From the IMG/VR virus record IMGVR_UViG_3300047476_001246: a stretch of DNA of 64,000 bases, one strand, 5' to 3'. The position numbers and the translations under genes were made by a program. Each line of letters opens with the position of its first letter. Within the stretch, counting starts at the first letter, position 1. Below, piece after piece: positions 12,952 through 62,751 of this stretch. This DNA is from a virus. The notes beneath the pieces are model-generated. The model was not told the DNA's origin, made no database searches, and worked only from the letters and a program-made list of their open reading frames with translations.

Positions 12952-13674
12952 TTATTTATTATCCATGCAAACGAACTCAGAAACTTCTCGTACAATGTCT
13001 GGGTTAATTAATCGTATGAAAGTTTCTATATCGCGATCGTTTGAATAAATGTACGAACCCCAAATCCAATCGTATGGCTTGCTCAAACTTTCTCGGGTAT
13101 GATTGCTCATTCTGACTAGATCACCCAAACTGGTCAAGTAAGTTAAAATTTGGCTTCTGGTTTCGGAACTGTATTGCTTTTCTTTAAACCAAATTCTATA
13201 TCTATACTTTGGCGGCTTTTTGACCAATATGACATTTTTATTGAGTAATGATTTAACCTCATCATTCTCTGGGCCAGTAATCGAAATAATTTTATCTCTT
13301 TGCTCAGGATCAATTGACTGAGCGATAGATCGTATCATTGGTTCGTCAGTGGCGTATATAGATATTTTAGGTTCTTCTGTGCGTATTTTAACATCAGGAT
13401 ACTCGTAATAGAGATCCTTGAGTGCGTATAAAAATCCAATATCCGCTTCCTGAAGAGCCTTGTATAATTGCTGGTTGTACCAAGAACCTTGACGCTTGTA
13501 GTCTCTAACCCATTCGCGTCTTTTATGTACGTCACTGGCTATATCGTCACAGCGAATACTTTTGCACCCTGGTGCACGAATATCCAATTTGTAATAATAT
13601 TCTCTGTAAAAGTTTTTTACAGATGATTCAATTTTAATATTTGGAGACAGGCTCTTCCAGAATGATGTATCCAT
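12952..13674 (-). CDS. Hypothetical protein
   Basis: 240-aa ORF overlapping the end of clpA. Confidence 0.65.
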   Translation of the reverse strand: MDTSFWKSLSPNIKIESSVKNFYREYYYKLDIRAPGCKSIRCDDIASDVHKRREWVRDYKRQGSWYNQQLYKALQEADIGFLYALKDLYYEYPDVKIRTEEPKISIYATDEPMIRSIAQSIDPEQRDKIISITGPENDEVKSLLNKNVILVKKPPKYRYRIWFKEKQYSSETRSQILTYLTSLGDLVRMSNHTRESLSKPYDWIWGSYIYSNDRDIETFIRLINPDIVREVSEFVCMDNK

Positions 13675-15925
13675 TGTCGTCTATTCTATGTTGAAAGTTT
13701 GATGTTTCTACTGGTTGAAAAACAAATTCTTTGTTTGCAAAATCTACAATAATAGTTGTTCCTGCAGAAATATTTTCAAACAAAATCTTTTTACTCAAAG
13801 GAACTTTGATAACGTCGTTGATTTTTCTTTGCAACGGTCTGGCTCCCATTTTAGGATCAAATCCGTTAACTACCAGTTCATCAACTGCACCTTCTGTTAG
13901 TCGTACTCGAAGTTGTTTGTCTTGCAATAAATCATTGAGTTCGTTGATAAACTTGTTGACAATTTTACGCATACTGAGTTGATCAAGTTTATTAAACTTA
14001 ACGATCCCATCAAGTCTGTTTCTAAATTCTGGTTTAAAGAACTCTTTGACTGCTTTGTCATCTTCGTTTGATTTTTGCAGTTTACCAAACCCGATGTTGT
14101 TCTTTTCATTATCTGCTGCACCAAGATTAGATGTCAAGATAATGATTGCGTTTCTGCAATCTGCCTTTTTACCATTGCTTGACGTGACAGTTCCTTCGTC
14201 CATCATTTGCAGAAGTATGTTGCTGACATCGGGGTGTGCTTTTTCAATTTCGTCCATTAGAATAATGGAATTAGGATTCTTTTCGATATCGCTAATCAAC
14301 AAGCCGCCACCAAGATTGCCATCGTCGTAGCCCACATAACCAGGAGGTGCACCAATCAGTTTTGCTACAGCATGACGTTCTTGATATTCGCTCATGTCAT
14401 ATCGTATCAATTTCATACCAAGATTCTCTGCCAACAGTTTAGCAAGTTCGGTCTTGCCTGTGCCTGTTGGACCAAGGAACAAGAAGTTGCCCACTGGTTT
14501 GTTGATTGCTTTGAGTCCTGCTCTGCTGACATAAATTTTTTCAAGTACTGTTTCAACTGCATTGTCCTGACCAAACAGTCTGTCCTTGATTTTGGGTTCT
14601 AGATTTTCTATACCTTTTGAATTCTCTGTGCTGCCAATTTGTTCAACAGGTATCTTGGTCATTTTGCTGATTGCATCAACAATGTCGGATCTAACAATAG
14701 TCCAGTCCGAATCGGCCAGTTTACGTCTTGCACAGCAAATGTCAATCAAGTCAATGGCTTTGTCAGGCAGTTTTTTATCTGTTTGATAGCGAACGCTCAA
14801 GTCCACTGCTGCTTCAATAGCAGCGTCAGTGATTGTGCCGTTGTGGAACTTTTCAAAATTGCTTCGCAGACCTTTGAGAATATCTTTGGCCACTTGTGGG
14901 CTAGGCTCGTCCACTGTGACTCGCTGGAATCGACGCATCAAGGCTCGATCTTTTTCGAATGTCTGTGTGTATTCTTCCCATGTAGTACTAGCAATAACTT
15001 TGATACGACCTTTGGTCAATGCCGGTTTGATCATGTTGCTGAAATCTGGGCCGCTTTGATTACCTGACCCTGCTCCACGCATTTGATGCGCTTCATCAAT
15101 GAACAGAATAGCTTTGCCTTTTACTGTAAGGGCAGCAATAATTTCTTGAATTTTTTCTTCAAAGTCTCCACGATATTTGCTGCCTGCAAGTATAGTTCCG
15201 ATATCAAGATTGTAAACAGTGTAATCGTGCAGATAATCAGGAACAGTCTTAAGAGTAATTGACAGCGCCAATCCTTCGGCAATGGCAGTTTTACCCACAC
15301 CTGGATCACCAATCAACAGCACATTGTTTTTGTTCCTACGTGCCAGTACTTCGACAATTTCGTTGGTTTCAAAATTTCGACCAATCACAGGATCAATTTT
15401 ACCATCCACTGCCAATTTATTTAGGTTGGTACAGAAGTGCTCAAGCACCTTGTCCGCTCTTGCAGTATCAGTAATTGTTTTACTTGAATCTGTTTTGTAT
15501 GACTTATTGTAAAGTTCAATCAGCTTGGCACGTTCTAGACCATACTTGACCATGAAGTAATGAGCATAGCTGTTGTTTTCTGCGTGTATGCTCACAAATA
15601 GATCAATTATGGTAATGTGTGTTCTTGAACTAAACAGCACCTGGGTAAATGCACGATTAAAAGTGCGTTCCAGAGCATGTGTCTTTTTGGGATCGCCATC
15701 AGTGCTGATCAAGTCAACCTGTGACAGTAGATAGTCTTCCAACTCGTTTTCGAGTGATTGGACATCTGCTCCAAAGTTTACTAATAGATCTTTAAAAGGT
15801 TCGTATCTCAGCATGGCCAAAAATACGTGTTCCAGCGTGACGTATTCGTGACTTAGTTTGATAGCTATTTTTGTTGCTTCTTCGATGACATGATCAATTT
15901 CGGGATTAGTCTGTAGCATATCCAT
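13634..15925 (-). CDS. clpA: ATP-dependent Clp protease ATPase subunit ClpA
   Basis: Clp N-domain; two AAA+ modules (GDPGVGKT/LFIDEAH, GPTGTGKT/LMDEIEKAH); IGF loop; no ClpB middle domain. Confidence 0.92.
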   Translation of the reverse strand: MDMLQTNPEIDHVIEEATKIAIKLSHEYVTLEHVFLAMLRYEPFKDLLVNFGADVQSLENELEDYLLSQVDLISTDGDPKKTHALERTFNRAFTQVLFSSRTHITIIDLFVSIHAENNSYAHYFMVKYGLERAKLIELYNKSYKTDSSKTITDTARADKVLEHFCTNLNKLAVDGKIDPVIGRNFETNEIVEVLARRNKNNVLLIGDPGVGKTAIAEGLALSITLKTVPDYLHDYTVYNLDIGTILAGSKYRGDFEEKIQEIIAALTVKGKAILFIDEAHQMRGAGSGNQSGPDFSNMIKPALTKGRIKVIASTTWEEYTQTFEKDRALMRRFQRVTVDEPSPQVAKDILKGLRSNFEKFHNGTITDAAIEAAVDLSVRYQTDKKLPDKAIDLIDICCARRKLADSDWTIVRSDIVDAISKMTKIPVEQIGSTENSKGIENLEPKIKDRLFGQDNAVETVLEKIYVSRAGLKAINKPVGNFLFLGPTGTGKTELAKLLAENLGMKLIRYDMSEYQERHAVAKLIGAPPGYVGYDDGNLGGGLLISDIEKNPNSIILMDEIEKAHPDVSNILLQMMDEGTVTSSNGKKADCRNAIIILTSNLGAADNEKNNIGFGKLQKSNEDDKAVKEFFKPEFRNRLDGIVKFNKLDQLSMRKIVNKFINELNDLLQDKQLRVRLTEGAVDELVVNGFDPKMGARPLQRKINDVIKVPLSKKILFENISAGTTIIVDFANKEFVFQPVETSNFQHRIDDNGYIILEEPVSKY

Positions 15926-54126: not shown

Positions 54127-54798
54127 TCAAGCAACTATTTTTTTACGTATTGTAGTCCAAAGTTGATCAATTTGATTGGCATAATCAGCTTCTTCAGGAA
54201 CTACATCTACAAATTCTCCATATCTAGCCCCCGTAAAGTTTTTTTCAACTCGAGTAAAGGGCAACTCTTCTTCTAACATTTTTCCTCGAAAACGGTCATA
54301 GGCTTGATTAAAAACCGACGTCCATAATTCTAATCCTCGACCTGCTGCAATGTTTATACCAAGTTCGGGTATGGCAAAATGATGATCCCACAATGCAGTC
54401 CAATCATCATTGATGTTGTTGATATAATCAACTACTCTTTTGGTCAAAACAAATGCATCAGATTCGATGTTTACAATTTTATCAAAATTGTATTTTGCAG
54501 CATAATCTGTTGCTGTTTGCATACTTCTAAACAAACCTGGATACTCAAACGGTGCCGGGGATCCGAGGTTATCATTGTGATGAAACAGTACAACATTGTG
54601 ATTGGGCTGCACATCAGGTAAATCGTAAATCACTTCGCAATCAATATCCAGCGGTAGCGTTGGTGAACCATCGTCGACTATAAGTATTTGATCAAACTCT
54701 AATCCTACGGTACTGTGATAGTCCAACCAACGCTTCCATCTGTGGTTCCATAGTCCTTGCGAATCAGCAAAGCTAGCACAAAATAGCAAGGTCTTCAT
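54127..54798 (-). CDS. Glycosyltransferase-like protein
   Basis: IVDDGS and IESDAF motifs. Confidence 0.6.
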   Translation of the reverse strand: MKTLLFCASFADSQGLWNHRWKRWLDYHSTVGLEFDQILIVDDGSPTLPLDIDCEVIYDLPDVQPNHNVVLFHHNDNLGSPAPFEYPGLFRSMQTATDYAAKYNFDKIVNIESDAFVLTKRVVDYINNINDDWTALWDHHFAIPELGINIAAGRGLELWTSVFNQAYDRFRGKMLEEELPFTRVEKNFTGARYGEFVDVVPEEADYANQIDQLWTTIRKKIVA

Positions 54799-55400
54799 TA
54801 CATTGCAGGACCATTGCCATTGCGAAAACCTACTGTACCACCTTCGGCTTCGATACGCTTGATAACATCTTCAAACAAGATAGGTGCAAAGTCTGTCTGT
54901 TCAACGCAGACGCAATGATAGCGAGGGTCAATCTTTTCTTTTACTCCCCACTCCACGAACTCTGCGGTAGAACTGGCTCGACGCATTACACGGTTAGCAT
55001 GCAAGTGTCCGTGAATGTTAACACCAAACCTACCAAGGCTGTCCTCATGAATAGGAATATGACTTAAAATCATTCCGTTCATGACATGATATGCCCGAAG
55101 CTCACGAAAATACTTGCGGTACTCGTCGTCGCGGAAGATGTCGTGGTTGCCTCTAATTAACACTTTGTCGCCGTTTAAACGACTCAATGTTTCAAGGCTT
55201 CGACGATTGATAACAACATCGCCCAGGTGGTAAACTTTATCATTGGGTCTAACACGCTCGTTCCATGCTGCTACCATAAACTCATCCATTTCCTCCGGGC
55301 TCTCCCAAGGGCGCAGTTTCGTCACTCCATCGTTCCGCATAAAGCGGCAAACACCAGCGTGACCAAAATGCGTGTCACTGACTAAAAACACTGCTGGCAT
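54798..55400 (-). CDS. Calcineurin-like metallophosphoesterase
   Basis: SDTHFGH, HLGD, GNHD, HGHLH. Confidence 0.88.
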   Translation of the reverse strand: MPAVFLVSDTHFGHAGVCRFMRNDGVTKLRPWESPEEMDEFMVAAWNERVRPNDKVYHLGDVVINRRSLETLSRLNGDKVLIRGNHDIFRDDEYRKYFRELRAYHVMNGMILSHIPIHEDSLGRFGVNIHGHLHANRVMRRASSTAEFVEWGVKEKIDPRYHCVCVEQTDFAPILFEDVIKRIEAEGGTVGFRNGNGPAM

Positions 55401-55413
55401 TTGGTTCTCCTTA

Positions 55414-55842
55414 TTAAAAATCTTCGCGAACTTCGCGAAACGAAGTAGGGTCTGCATCCGGGTTAGTATCGACTTCAAAAGATCCACCGTAATAGCCGTT
55501 GTGGCTATTACGCACTTCAAAGTCAATATATCCGCGATCAGTTTTCAAAGTAAAGAAACCATCTTGGATAACGTCCCATTCGTCCTCATCAGTTCGATTT
55601 TCGCCCCAACCTTTATCTTCTGCTCCGGTCACTAGTGCTCCACGCAGGATGTCAAAAGTATTACCTTCTCCTAGCACATTCACACCAGTCATGTGATTGA
55701 TCCACACAGTATTGCAACAGTCTCCAGAAGTGTAGTAATGAAATTCCTGACCGTTGATTGTACGCACAATCAACCGGTTATTGTCGTCATTCAGGAGAAT
55801 GCTGTTAATACGCTCCCCTACTAAATTTTTAAACACGCTCAC
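55414..55842 (-). CDS. Hypothetical phage protein
   Basis: DCC and SHNGYYGG motifs; GGAGG RBS. Confidence 0.65.
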   Translation of the reverse strand: MSVFKNLVGERINSILLNDDNNRLIVRTINGQEFHYYTSGDCCNTVWINHMTGVNVLGEGNTFDILRGALVTGAEDKGWGENRTDEDEWDVIQDGFFTLKTDRGYIDFEVRNSHNGYYGGSFEVDTNPDADPTSFREVREDF

Positions 55843-57001: not shown

Positions 57002-57601
57002 TTATGTAATACTTGCTCTATTAGCAACAACTTGGTCTGCTAGGCCGTATGCAACCGCTTGTTCGGCGCTCATAAAGTAATCACGCTCCATGTCTTCGCG
57101 CAGTTCATCATAGGTCTTGCCTACGCTGTTGTGCTTGACATAGATACCAGTAAGGTTGCGCTTCATCTCCAGGATCTCACGCACTTGGATTTCCATGTCT
57201 GTGGCTTGACCTCGAGCACCACCACTTGGTTGGTGAATCATGTGTCTAGCATTGGGCAGAATAAAACGCTTGCCTGCTGCACCTGCTTGTGCCAACAGCG
57301 AACCCATTGAGCAGGCTTGTCCCATCACAATAGTATTCACATCTGGTCGAATGAACTGCATAGCATCATAAATTGCCATGCCAGCTGTCACTGATCCACC
57401 TGGGCTATTGATCCATAGGTTAATATCCCGATCCGGATCTTCACTTTCAAGATACAGCAATTGTGCAACAATCAAATTGGCCATTTGATCATGTACTTCT
57501 CCCTCTAGTAGGACCACACGCTCTTTTAGCAATCTGCTATAGATATCATAGCTACGTTCGCCTTTACTAGTTTGTTCTACAACCATGGGCACTAATGGCA
57601 A
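57002..57601 (-). CDS. clpP: ATP-dependent Clp protease proteolytic subunit
   Basis: [29 protein letters not shown]. Confidence 0.95.
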
Positions 57602-59618: not shown

Positions 59619-59870
59619 TTAATTTTCTCTAACATGTTTGGCGTCAACACAAGTTTCGCCTTTGAACACATACACATCTGAATCTACTCGTAGCTGTTCA
59701 AACACTTGATTGTTCACGCAAATATATGGATCTCGATGATTTTGCATGTAGTAAAAGACTGCATAACCAATACCAGCTAATATCATTAGTATAGGAATAT
59801 ACTTAAGATATTTCACAATTTCGGGCATTGCACCCAAAATTTGCGGTAAGTTTTTTAACAGGTCTTTCAT
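59619..59870 (-). CDS. Membrane-anchored hypothetical protein
   Basis: Single TM; TAAATA upstream. Confidence 0.6.
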   Translation of the reverse strand: MKDLLKNLPQILGAMPEIVKYLKYIPILMILAGIGYAVFYYMQNHRDPYICVNNQVFEQLRVDSDVYVFKGETCVDAKHVREN

Positions 59871-59883
59871 ACTCGTATTTAAC

Positions 59884-59944
59884 CATTCTGAAGCACACTA
59901 TGCCACGCTTTGAACCTGGACTCTTAGTAATGTGCTTTAGAATG
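59884..59944 (-). repeat. Conserved-stem hairpin unit 1
   Basis: CATTCTAAAGCACATT...AGTGTGCTTCAGAATG. Confidence 0.75.
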
Positions 59945-59945
59945 T

Positions 59946-60836
59946 GCTAACGCTGAGATTACACGTTAGCCACAAGCACCTCTAGCATTATAGTACGCCT
60001 TGCGAGCATACCTTCTCTAGACATCCACTAAATCCTGTTATCACACAGTAATCTAGTCTGCTTGCAGCATCGCCGTTTTTATGGTCAGGCAGTAGACCAG
60101 TCGTTACGTGCTACTCTGTACCTTATTTTCCGTTGAACTTGCGGTCCATTAAGCCTTGCGAGCTACGAAACTTCTAGTACAAATTAGTGTCACCTTGCGA
60201 GCTTCACTAAACTCAATTGGCTCACGCCTTGAGTGTTAGATGCTTTTCGCACATAACCGGAGCAGTCTTTGCATTTTTGTAATGATAGTTGGATTCGAAC
60301 CAACTGCCGTCAGATTAAAAAGTCTGTCGCTCTACCGATGAGCTATATCAACCTACTACGATGTGCTGCTCCAGTTGCTGAATAAAGTTTTGCTCTACCC
60401 AATACAACACACCATGTACCTTTTGCCTGCCGGCTACTCAGTAGTCCTTCGCGATTAGTGTGACCCCGCCGTTGCCGACAGCCCCACCGACCACTTGTAC
60501 TGCACACAAGCCCTTGGCTGCGAAACCTCGGACAAATGCACTACCCTTTCTCATACCAGTTAACTGATTGGTTTTGCAGTGAAGTCAGCACCACCTGTTA
60601 CTTTCCTTGCACCCTGGTTCCCTTGCGGGCCAGTCGATACAAGTTCTTTCCACTACATCAGCTTCGCTGTTAAATCCACCCGTCTTATAAGTGAACGCTA
60701 CCTCACGGTAGTGAGCAGGCTTGTTTAAGCGGACCATTGCTGGCGCAGGCGTGTAGGACGCTGCTGCTTTGGGTCACTCACGTGACTTATCCTTAGTTAG
60801 ACGGCGAACCGTCTAGCAAGAGATTAAACTCCCTAA
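59946..60836 (-). ncRNA. Large structured ncRNA, GOLLD-like (~890 nt)
   Basis: No ORF in the ORF track, GC-richer, many GCAA-loop hairpins, embedded tRNA-like element, 3' ...GTAATCTCAG hairpin, own promoter, within a tRNA cluster. Confidence 0.68.
60281..60352 (-). ncRNA. tRNA-Lys-like element with 8-nt anticodon loop inside the large ncRNA
   Basis: Intact D and T arms; loop CTTTTTAA; no CCA. Confidence 0.7.
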
Positions 60837-60842
60837 GTATCT

Positions 60843-60871
60843 ATAATAAAACAAATTCAAATTCTTGTCAA
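60843..60871 (-). promoter_or_regulatory. Sigma70-type promoter for the GOLLD-like RNA
   Basis: TTGACA-N17-TATTAT. Confidence 0.75.
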
Positions 60872-60883
60872 CTACTTTTTTAT

Positions 60884-60976
60884 CATATTGAAACACACTG
60901 ACTACATTGGCAAACCCGTTTGGGATTTACAACCGTTGTCTGGGCGGTGATCCGCTTACAATGCATTTCAATATGG
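60884..60976 (-). repeat. Conserved-stem hairpin unit 2
   Basis: CATATTGAAATGCATTG...CAGTGTGTTTCAATATG. Confidence 0.8.
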
Positions 60977-61073
60977 CCGGTCTGTCCTGTTGTTACAGTC
61001 CATCTAGGCTGAACAGCATTTGCAACTGACTGAACGGATACTCTTAATACCCATCTTTAGAACTGACCGTCTA

Positions 61074-61148
61074 CCATATTGAAGCACACTATCACAAACT
61101 ACAGGCACGACTAAGAGCCCGGGAAAAAGACAATGTGCTTCAATATGG
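61074..61148 (-). repeat. Conserved-stem hairpin unit 3
   Basis: CCATATTGAAGCACATT...AGTGTGCTTCAATATGG. Confidence 0.85.
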
Positions 61149-61248
61149 CAACAATGTTGACTACCCTTCTAGCCCACGGTCAAGTTCTGCTAGTCGCTCT
61201 AGGGTCATTGGCGGTACTGTTTGCACAGGCAGACCCAATCATTGTTTA

Positions 61249-61411
61249 CCATATTGAAGCATACTCCGGCAAGGACTCGCACCTCGCTCCACCCTGTCCC
61301 AAACTACTTACGGATACGAGATTCAGTCTTCCGGACGACTTCATCTTATCTTACCGCTTTCACCCAAGGTGCATGCGAACGTCATACACTACAGAATGTG
61401 CTTCAATATAG
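61249..61411 (-). repeat. Conserved-stem hairpin unit 4
   Basis: ATATTGAAGCACATTC...GAGTATGCTTCAATAT, ~130-nt insert. Confidence 0.8.
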
Positions 61412-61752
61412 ATCCCACCGTTAACGACAGCATTTGTCCTAGCTTTATTTTGAGTCGGTTAATGCACGGTGGGAACACATGCCGACCTGTCGTATTTTCG
61501 TGTACTGTTGCTTGCCCCAAGGGTTAGGTACCTACCTCAGCGACTCATACTGGTCGACGACAACGACCGCTGCTCTTAAATTACATCTAGTACAAACAAA
61601 TGCTTGGGGAATCGAACCCCGCCTGCTCCCCTTTCGGCAACTCATTCACCCCTGCAAGGGTTTCAACTCTGCGTACTCGGTTCACCGTGCTAGCCAATAC
61701 ACTTAGCAGCCTGTCATAGTTCATTGCAGTGCCCTATGAGCAGTTTTGTACT

Positions 61753-61826
61753 ATATAGAAACACACTGCCGATTAGTTATCAAGAAACGACCTGATGATC
61801 AAGTCAGGCTCAGTATGTTTTTATAT
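61753..61826 (-). repeat. Conserved-stem hairpin unit 5
   Basis: ATATAAAAACATACTG...CAGTGTGTTTCTATAT. Confidence 0.7.
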
Positions 61827-61917
61827 GCAGTCTCGTTTAGCGTCCGAGACTGCCAAGACGGGGTCTGTAGACTGCTGACAATTTATCACATTATACGCCG
61901 TCAGCAAAGGCGAGCTT

Positions 61918-62013
61918 TGGGTGCAGGATCAAGGGGTCGAACCTCGACGCGACATATCTAGAATAACCACGTTGAGCCTGCTCAACATGGCGTCGCCCAG
62001 TCCACTTCCTGCA
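61918..62013 (-). ncRNA. tRNA-like RNA without an anticodon loop
   Basis: TGCAGGA/TCCTGCA-CCCA acceptor, GGTTCGACCCC T-arm, long hairpin replacing the anticodon arm. Confidence 0.7.
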
Positions 62014-62175: not shown

Positions 62176-62179
62176 TGTG

Positions 62180-62370
62180 TATTCTTGCTTAGGCCACGTG
62201 GTTCCACCCATCGCCCCTATGCTGGAGTTGTTGCCCTGTCCGAACACTAATGCGGTTTGCTACGTAGTGTCCACGCTGCTATGTTGTCTGCTTACGTCTG
62301 CGCTGTCGGTGCCATAGCCACCGGACTGTCTCATAGTCAACGCCAACTTTATGGATAGTTGGAATCCGGA
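62180..62370 (-). ncRNA. Structured ncRNA B (possibly manA-like)
   Basis: 17-nt motif identical to ncRNA A followed by GGGGC-hairpin-GTGGCC; promoter-like sequence just upstream; ends approximate. Confidence 0.5.
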
Positions 62371-62523
62371 ATCTGTATAATAGCAAAAATTATCTTTTTA
62401 GTCTACCATAATTTAGTACACTGTGATTAACAAGTTTATCGGCAGCATCCTCTTGTTGTGGATGTCAGATCTCCTGGACAATCTAATGTCTCGGGCACTG
62501 CCTTATATCAACGTACTAAATTA

Positions 62524-62607
62524 TGGTGCCCCAGGCGAGACTCGAACTCGCACGCCTTGCAGCACTGGCTTCTAAGACCAGCGTGTCTACCATTCCACCA
62601 CCAGGGC
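62524..62607 (-). tRNA. tRNA-Leu(TAG)
   Basis: Variable arm, CCA end; promoter TTGACA-N17-TATAAT at 62675-62703. Confidence 0.92.
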
Positions 62608-62751
62608 AATGTTTACAAATTGTTAATGAACCTGTTTCTTACTGCTTGTCTGTGTTGTCTTACACAGTTTCATTATTATATGGAATATTGCTATTCCTGT
62701 CAACTACTTTTTTGTGTTGTATTTTTGCAACACAGTTGCTACTTTGTTAAC

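What the first reader, a model, noticed from the sequence alone, without database searches (positions are those of the whole stretch)
59884..61826. Array of five hairpin cassettes with a conserved ~15-bp stem and unique inserts
Seen: units at 59884-59944, 60884-60976, 61074-61148, 61249-61411 and 61753-61826 share consensus 5'-ATATTGAAGCACATT...AGTGTGYTTCAATAT-3' (minus strand) around unrelated ~30-130-nt inserts. Substitutions are often compensatory (ATTCT/AGAAT, ATATA/TATAT) or G-U on the minus strand, so pairing appears selected in RNA co-oriented with the tRNAs. The region has no convincing ORFs and no cas genes. Inference: a possibly undescribed small-RNA system in which a constant handle (RNase III site or protein-binding stem) releases or presents variable guide/decoy RNAs; an attC-like ssDNA cassette site is an alternative.
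Basis: partly seen in the sequence, partly recalled or inferred. Interest (0 to 1): 0.85.

Follow-up and report, generated by a model that had tools for sequence, protein, structure and literature searches.

The report
Phage RNase III-clamped small RNA cassettes
Large lake phages place, between their tRNA genes, cassettes in which a fixed RNA stem shaped like an ideal cut site for the host enzyme RNase III encloses one of more than 200 different conserved small folded RNAs, which probably lets the phage release a swappable set of stable RNAs whose targets are unknown.

Summary
The five hairpins are real. A sixth follows tRNA-Leu (62406-62526), and a GOLLD RNA lies between units 1 and 2. The element is widespread: 679 units in 289 viral and metagenome loci, 660 within 3 kb of a tRNA. 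It was not found in GTDB genomes or Rfam. The inserts are not unique: 481 distinct inserts form about 224 families, and the unit-1 insert is 98% identical across 42 unrelated flanks while the stem covaries around it. The stem matches the published E. coli RNase III determinants in one register only (8.1 determinants against 4.6 or fewer elsewhere; permutation p about 0.001; repeated on 54 stems found through their cargo alone). The predicted cuts lie 4 nt past the upstream CCA, the same distance as the annotated ends of phage T5 stable RNAIII. Most likely host RNase III splits the tRNA operon and frees stem-clamped small RNAs. No antisense signal was found; about 10% of families carry tRNA T-arm sequence, so binding or decoy roles are my best guess (about 45%). 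No RNA reads were available. This scan noted the family before on other genomes, with the cutter unknown.

The parts
59883..59945 (-). Unit 1: clamp stem with a 29-nt cargo, directly after the GOLLD 3' end; predicted RNase III product 59888-59938 (51 nt)
   Evidence: cargo 98% identical in 42 contexts
59950..60836 (-). GOLLD RNA (Rfam match 59950-60415; 5' part inferred from the promoter and from BLAST hits in 13 loci), with a tRNA-Lys-like gene at 60279-60352 inside it
60843..60871 (-). sigma70-like promoter (11 of 12) for GOLLD and unit 1
   Evidence: consensus match only
60883..60976 (-). Unit 2: clamp with 60-nt cargo; predicted product 60888-60969 (82 nt)
   Evidence: 90% homologue in L140
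60974..61075 (-). Conserved non-tRNA RNA running from GG to CCA; its CCA supplies the outer pairs of unit 2
   Evidence: BLAST hits in 14 loci
61074..61148 (-). Unit 3: consensus clamp with 41-nt cargo; predicted product 61079-61141 (63 nt)
   Evidence: homologues in L075 and L092
61146..61250 (-). Conserved non-tRNA RNA running from GG to CCA between units 4 and 3
   Evidence: 85% full-length homologue in L108, where it precedes the unit-1 cargo instead
61249..61411 (-). Unit 4: clamp with 129-nt cargo ending in a T-loop-like hairpin; predicted product 61254-61404 (151 nt)
   Evidence: no homologue found
61410..61752 (-). Two further conserved structured RNAs (about 61410-61570 and 61571-61752, the second with a T-arm)
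   Evidence: BLAST hits in 2 and 4 loci
61751..61828 (-). Unit 5: divergent clamp with 44-nt cargo; predicted product 61756-61821 (66 nt)
   Evidence: no homologue found
61827..62012 (-). Conserved structured segment (61827-61918) and a tRNA-shaped RNA with T-arm and CCA (61919-62012) that ARAGORN and Rfam do not call
   Evidence: sequence inspection
62176..62370 (-). Conserved structured RNA at the start of the transcript from the 62377-62405 promoter
   Evidence: BLAST hits in 10 loci
62377..62405 (-). sigma70-like promoter (9 of 12, extended -10), upstream of units 5 to 2
   Evidence: consensus match only
62406..62526 (-).
62675..62703 (-). Perfect sigma70 promoter (12 of 12) upstream of tRNA-Leu and unit 6

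Best explanation
Each unit is a cassette in a polycistronic phage tRNA/ncRNA transcript. Its two arms pair into a 17-18 bp RNA helix built like a minimal host RNase III substrate: 7 bp outside the cut and 11 bp inside. Counting the A of the upstream CCA as position 1, RNase III is predicted to cut the 5' arm after position 5 and the 3' arm three bases before its end, leaving 2-nt 3' overhangs. This frees a small RNA of about 50-230 nt whose ends are clamped by a 10-11 bp stem. It leaves the upstream tRNA or CCA-ending RNA with a 4-nt trailer and the downstream tRNA with a leader of 3 nt or more, for the usual exonucleases and RNase P. The cargo is the selected product: one of more than 200 structured families that are swapped between slots and phages, probably by recombination at the shared arms and neighbouring tRNAs. 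I think it most likely that cargos act in trans by shape, binding or decoying host proteins or ligands, some as tRNA-elbow mimics. Shown: the helix, its polarity, its fixed position against tRNA ends, the match to RNase III determinants, cargo conservation and changing context. Inferred: transcription, cleavage (about 0.8), product stability, the way cassettes move, and the binding or decoy role (about 0.45).
For: Register test on 312 distinct units: 8.09 of 12 determinants at one register, 4.55 or fewer at the 17 others; distal box U.G 84% and U-A 91%; proximal-box position 2 A-U 99%; outer proximal box 99/98/97/75%; order-shuffled consensus reaches the same score in 159 of 200,000 trials (rules from PMC1540722). 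Same peak in 54 stems found only through cargo patterns: 7.56 against 4.46 or fewer. The distal-box end of the stem equals that of T7 R1.1. T5 RNAIII has a stem that starts on an upstream CCA and ends before tRNA-His; its annotated ends lie 4 nt past the CCA with a 2-nt 3' overhang. 221 of 679 units start on the last A of a tRNA and 88 end flush with a tRNA 5' end; tRNA-tRNA gaps of 0 were seen twice and of -1 never. Stem covariation around a fixed cargo: 11 of 18 pairs change on both sides. Cargo 98% identical against flanks 29-32%. 20 of 52 larger families follow two or more tRNA types; a family repeats within a locus in only 8 of 181. The slot after GOLLD holds four different cargo families in nine loci. 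No phage RNase III, dsRBD or Ro60 in the near-complete carrier genomes searched. tRNA-sense 11-mers in 24 families against 3.9 expected.
Against: The pair next to the inner cut is G-C in 281 of 517 units, which lowers E. coli RNase III cleavage 14-fold on the minimal substrate without lowering binding; cutting may be slow or on the 3' arm only. The rules come from E. coli, while the host is only inferred to be a betaproteobacterium from tmRNA tags in related loci. The stem is more uniform than RNase III needs, so a second reader or recent common descent may contribute. How the T5 ends were determined could not be checked. No cargo partner was identified; cargo folding is only weakly better than shuffles on average (mean z -0.44).
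Confidence: 0.65

Rival explanations
1. The stem is only a processing signal that lets RNase III separate tRNAs; the loop is discarded or acts in cis on processing.
For: Exact coupling to tRNA ends; RNase III is known to help mature T4 tRNAs (PMC4810235); 138 of 224 families are singletons.
Against: Unpaired cargo bases are more conserved than the stem (98% against 79-83%); a cargo helix covaries; most tRNA pairs in the same loci are separated by 1-10 nt with no stem; one signal would not need over 200 loops.
Confidence: 0.12
2. The stem is bound but not cut: an RNase III sink, or a handle for another protein, in the manner of the Y RNA stem and Ro60, with release done by RNase P and tRNA 3' processing.
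For: G-C at the catalytic antideterminant position in 54% of units; very uniform sequence; units abut tRNA ends, so tRNA processing alone could free them.
Against: In stems found through cargo that position is A-U or U-A in 53%; the outer proximal box is near optimal; no TROVE or dsRBD gene in the carriers searched; T5 RNAIII and RNAIV are annotated as starting inside their stems.
Confidence: 0.12
3. Cargos are antisense or guide RNAs that pair with host or phage transcripts.
For: Near-invariant cargo sequence fits pairing to a conserved target; host mRNAs were not tested.
Against: No excess of complementary words against rRNA operons (25 vs 26.4), window mRNA (67 vs 58 at 11 nt, 22 vs 17 at 12 nt) or tRNAs (5 vs 3.9); the ends are clamped; no guide-using nuclease among the commonest neighbouring genes; the unit 1/unit 3 complementarity is matched by 14% of random pairs and is weaker in relatives.
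Confidence: 0.07
4. The units are DNA-level mobile sites: attC-like cassette sites or MITE-like elements with terminal inverted repeats.
For: Cassettes change neighbours; the arms are inverted repeats; single-stranded DNA also tolerates G-T.
Against: No tyrosine recombinase in five near-complete carriers; no conserved extrahelical bases; G-U polarity equals transcription direction 194:0; interiors are unrelated families; 660 of 679 lie near tRNAs; T-loop words are sense-biased 22:2.
Confidence: 0.04

Closest known systems
Phage T5 stable RNAs RNAIII, RNAIV and RNA2H (GenBank AY543070, 'stable RNA with unknown functions')
   Same: In a tRNA cluster; closed by a long stem; RNAIII's stem starts on the CCA of an upstream non-tRNA RNA (RNAI), ends just before a tRNA, and its annotated ends have the predicted geometry; RNAIV starts after the same four bases, at an A.C mismatch.
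   Different: Each T5 stem has its own sequence; no cargo homology was seen (T5 gave only tRNA hits). Here one standard clamp is reused up to 11 times per locus with a shared pool of over 200 cargo families.
Phage T7 early RNase III sites (R1.1 and its minimal substrate, PMC1540722)
   Same: Same distal box, same A-U pairs in the proximal box, same 11-bp inner helix.
   Different: R1.1 has a tetraloop and splits mRNAs; here the loop is a conserved 15-212 nt RNA in a tRNA operon, and an optimal outer proximal box is made from a CCA end.
Phage T4 rnaC and rnaD, and RNase III-assisted T4 tRNA maturation
   Same: Stable RNAs of unknown function cut from a phage tRNA operon by host enzymes.
   Different: They end like tRNAs and are not closed by this clamp; they resemble the GG-to-CCA RNAs between the units.
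Bacterial and phage Y RNAs (YrlA, RF02553) with Ro60
   Same: Constant terminal stem plus a variable, sometimes tRNA-like module; lie near tRNAs (own knowledge).
   Different: No YrlA match on units, no Ro60 gene, no bulged-C motif.
GOLLD RNA (RF02032)
   Same: Neighbour in this operon; phage tRNA-island RNA of unknown function; its 3' end is followed by a clamp in nine loci.
   Different: The units are not part of GOLLD; only 9 of 679 directly follow it.

Membership tests
RNase III substrate (E. coli rules) | 11-bp helix inside the cut and at least 6 nt outside | tested here: met
   Positions 6-16 and -1 to 5 paired in 87-100% of 312 units
RNase III substrate (E. coli rules) | Distal box U-A and U.G | tested here: met
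   91% and 84%; 92% and 59% in cargo-found stems
RNase III substrate (E. coli rules) | Proximal box positions 1-3 (G-C; A-U or U-A; A-U) | tested here: met
   Inner: G 73% (strict G-C 27%), 99%, 92%; outer: 75%, 97%, 98%
RNase III substrate (E. coli rules) | No G-C pair next to the scissile bond | tested here: inconclusive
   Outer met in 99%; inner met in 15% of pattern-found and 53% of cargo-found stems
RNase III substrate (E. coli rules) | Cleavage with 2-nt 3' overhangs that depends on RNase III | not testable with these tools
   No reads; only the T5 annotation as a parallel
T5-type stem-closed stable RNAs | Long closing stem in a tRNA operon, joined to CCA and tRNA ends | tested here: met
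T5-type stem-closed stable RNAs | Sequence homology to T5 RNAIII, IV or 2H | tested here: not met
   BLAST of the region against cultured phages gave tRNA hits; two unit-rich loci gave only E 2-8 matches
T5-type stem-closed stable RNAs | Accumulates as a stable RNA in infected cells | not testable with these tools
   no RNA data
Described Rfam family | Covariance-model match on units | tested here: not met
   None on window units up to E 10 except a chance mir-653 hit; none on units in 15 other loci; one search showed only its top 150 rows, all tRNA
Y RNA / Ro60 | Ro60 gene in the genome and YrlA match | tested here: not met
   0 of 5 records, 4 of them near complete
Integron attC cassette array | Tyrosine recombinase in the genome; extrahelical bases in the stem | tested here: not met
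   0 of 5 near-complete genomes; continuous helix
CRISPR or TIGR-like guide array | Regular direct repeats with unique spacers and a linked effector gene | tested here: not met
   Inverted arms, irregular spacing; cargos conserved across phages; commonest neighbours are a metallophosphoesterase, an RNase H-like protein and RNA polymerase omega

The most novel reading that the evidence does not exclude
Large freshwater phages keep an open, exchangeable library of hundreds of RNA aptamers or decoys, loaded into a standard RNase III expression cassette, each neutralising a different host defence protein, RNA-binding protein or signal molecule: an RNA counterpart of anti-defence gene islands.
Probability: 0.4. 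Interest if true: 0.92.

Novelty: new variant of a known kind. Interest (0 to 1): 0.74.

Why it matters
The stable small RNAs of T4 and T5 tRNA clusters are still annotated as of unknown function. This family shows the same design at large scale, with a standard clamp, exact predicted ends and more than 200 conserved cargo folds that match no Rfam family tested. The register analysis names the likely cutter and the bonds, so cleavage and cargo pull-downs can be run directly, and T5 and KVP40 offer cultured models of the same architecture. Phage tRNA regions are already known to counter tRNA-cleaving defences (PMC11555353, PMC11464382); if cargos do too, this would be a large new source of natural RNA aptamers and a natural scaffold for expressing stable RNAs.

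Tried and rejected
Whole genome of the window: not held. Exact stem pattern in GTDB genomes: 0. Two cargo motifs in 401 Burkholderiales genomes: 0, so no evidence that they copy a host motif by sequence. A cut at the arm/insert boundary, suggested by a six-pair likeness to the 16S processing stem, was rejected: 3.6 determinants. Alternative pairing of one unit's 3' arm with the next unit's 5' arm is worse than own pairing in 109 cases and better in 13. Unit 1/unit 3 complementarity is chance. A glutamine-riboswitch-like look of one cargo family got no Rfam support. Phage-encoded partners: Ro60, RNase III, dsRBD, CCA-adding enzyme and integrase not found; the RNA ligase 1 search rang in no control and shows nothing; RNA ligase family hits were in 6 of 21 records, most of them weak hits on 460-aa proteins that I take for DNA ligases; the RNase H-like gene is in 4 of 7 near-complete genomes, so not universal. 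The KVP40 BLAST hit was a tRNA T-arm, though the same region holds a separate 9-determinant stem. The in vivo RNase III score table of PMC6212723 was not available. Paper searches found no description; individual cargos may sit unnamed among the candidates of PMC10690425, whose models I could not search. Limits: family counts rest on a heuristic clustering and on capped, pattern-biased scans; loci are not independent genomes; cargo conservation is partly forced by the search patterns (17 of 29 bases for unit 1), though the other bases are also nearly fixed.

Full report
Setting. The window is part of a large tailed phage (tail-collar, ClpA and ClpP genes) with 24 tRNA genes, all on the minus strand. 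No whole genome is held. The finding lies in the second tRNA block.

Observation. All five units are there, and the minus strand pairs at least as completely as the plus strand in the stem. A sixth unit begins on the CCA of tRNA-Leu at 62526. Between units 1 and 2 lies a GOLLD RNA (216.6 bits) with its own promoter at 60843-60871. The gaps between the other units hold conserved structured RNAs, two of which run from GG to CCA. Rfam has no match on the units.

Distribution. With further scans a pair profile found 679 units, 518 distinct, in 289 loci, with no control hit at the same threshold; 660 lie within 3 kb of a tRNA. Carriers include complete genomes of about 150-165 kb and of 340-400 kb. 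tmRNA tags in several loci look betaproteobacterial (own knowledge), so the host is inferred, not shown. Earlier notes of this scan describe the same family in other genomes.

The stem acts as RNA. The strand that carries the G-U pairs is the tRNA strand in 194 units and the other strand in none. The consensus is CCAUAUUGAAGCACAUU paired with AGUGUGYUUCAAUAUGG. In 31 units that share one cargo, 11 of 18 pairs change on both sides and slid controls collapse. 221 units start on the last A of a tRNA and 88 end flush with the next tRNA, spacings that ordinary tRNA pairs in these loci almost never show.

The stem is built like an RNase III site. PMC1540722 defines the minimal E. coli substrate: 6 nt before the cut, an 11-bp helix after it, a distal box of U.G and U-A, and a proximal box of G-C, A-U or U-A, A-U, A-U or U-A. 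I scored every 2-nt-overhang register on 312 distinct units. One register gives 8.09 determinants; the other 17 give 1.5 to 4.55. It accounts for the near-invariant A-U at position 8, the U.G and U-A at 14 and 15, the kept pair at 16 and the whole outer CCA/UGG end, which forms a second, near-optimal proximal box. Shuffling the order of the consensus pairs reaches this score in 159 of 200,000 trials. Because my first loci were picked by stem sequence, I repeated the test on 54 stems found only through cargo patterns: the same peak, 7.56 against at most 4.46, with 27 of 54 stems scoring 8 or more against 0.7% of shuffles. The one misfit is the pair beside the inner cut, G-C in 54% of all units, and it is also the position most often mismatched (A.C in 74 of 517). 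In E. coli a G-C there slows cleavage 14-fold without affecting binding, so the 5' arm may be cut slowly or not at all, as I recall for natural T7 R1.1.

A cultured parallel. T5 carries annotated stable RNAs of unknown function in its tRNA cluster. RNAIII, RNAIV and RNA2H are closed by long stems. RNAIII follows the CCA-ending RNAI and precedes tRNA-His, the same order as in this window. Its annotated ends lie 4 nt past the CCA and leave a 2-nt 3' overhang, the distance I predict here; RNAIV's 5' end falls at the equivalent step, with its 3' end one base short of the prediction. I could not check how those ends were determined. KVP40 has a 9-determinant stem ahead of its tRNA cluster. RNase III is reported to take part in T4 tRNA maturation. 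None of the carrier genomes searched encodes RNase III, a dsRBD protein, Ro60 or an integrase.

The cargo is selected and changes context. The 481 distinct inserts (15-212 nt, median 54) fall into about 224 families, 138 of them single, so the pool is far from sampled. The unit-1 cargo is 98% identical across 42 contexts whose arms are 79-83% and whose flanks are about 30% identical. Searched without the stem, every full match of that cargo sat in a clamp (33 contexts), and a second family did so in 52 of 56; its inner helix covaries. Of 52 families with three or more members, 20 follow two or more tRNA types, and a family repeats within a locus in only 8 of 181 cases. The slot after GOLLD holds four different cargo families.

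What the cargo does is not shown. There is no excess complementarity to rRNA operons, tRNAs or this phage's mRNAs, and no excess likeness to rRNA. Two cargo motifs were not found in 401 Burkholderiales genomes. The one positive signal is tRNA-sense sequence, mostly the T-arm, in 24 families against 3.9 expected. Fixed unpaired bases, one copy per family, a large open pool and residence in tRNA regions that are known to counter defences fit binding or decoy roles best, but this is inference.

Verdict. A real, widespread and, as far as I could search, unpublished cassette family. It works like the T5 stem-closed stable RNAs and like a T7 RNase III site, but shows no sequence homology to the T5 RNAs and belongs to no Rfam family tested. 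Confidence: helix and family, very high; RNase III release, about 0.8; cargo as trans-acting binder or decoy, about 0.45. Novelty: new variant of a known kind. Interest 0.74.

Noticed in passing
window 60279-60352 (-): The tRNA inside GOLLD has an 8-nt anticodon loop with five U in a row (Lys-like); ARAGORN cannot assign it. It may be a pseudogene or a frameshifting tRNA.
   Followed up: no
window 61919-62012 (-): tRNA-shaped RNA with acceptor stem, T-arm and CCA but a long hairpin in place of a normal anticodon arm; no homologue among the loci held.
   Followed up: partly
L008 8339-8685, L011 617-692, L032 1412-1591 and others: A second class of conserved non-tRNA RNAs between units; 67 of 91 distinct segments start with GG and end with CCA, many with a T-arm. 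They resemble T5 RNAI and T4 rnaC/rnaD in position.
   Followed up: partly
L002 690 region, L003, L021, L037, L085, L111: A conserved cargo of about 200 nt with a likely pseudoknot, large enough to be a ribozyme or complex aptamer (family F6).
   Followed up: no
L058 93-174, L019 3452-3534, L115 4832-4915: A cargo family forming a three-way junction whose layout recalls the glutamine riboswitch; no Rfam hit.
   Followed up: partly
L471 604-751, 756-900, 1142-1291 (Vibrio phage KVP40): Three unannotated stem-closed RNAs ahead of the KVP40 tRNA cluster, one with 9 RNase III determinants, two with tRNA-like D and T arms inside.
   Followed up: partly
L375, L378, L388, L395: The A1 cargo family occurs here inside a different, shorter closing stem, so cargo and clamp can be uncoupled.
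   Followed up: no
window 54798-55526 and 59619-59870 (-): A metallophosphoesterase is the commonest gene beside these clusters (46 loci); the 83-aa ORF after unit 1 is conserved at the DNA level in 9 loci and has no Pfam match.
   Followed up: partly
window 13634-15925 and 57002-57601 (-): The phage encodes both a ClpA-like ATPase and a ClpP protease.
   Followed up: no
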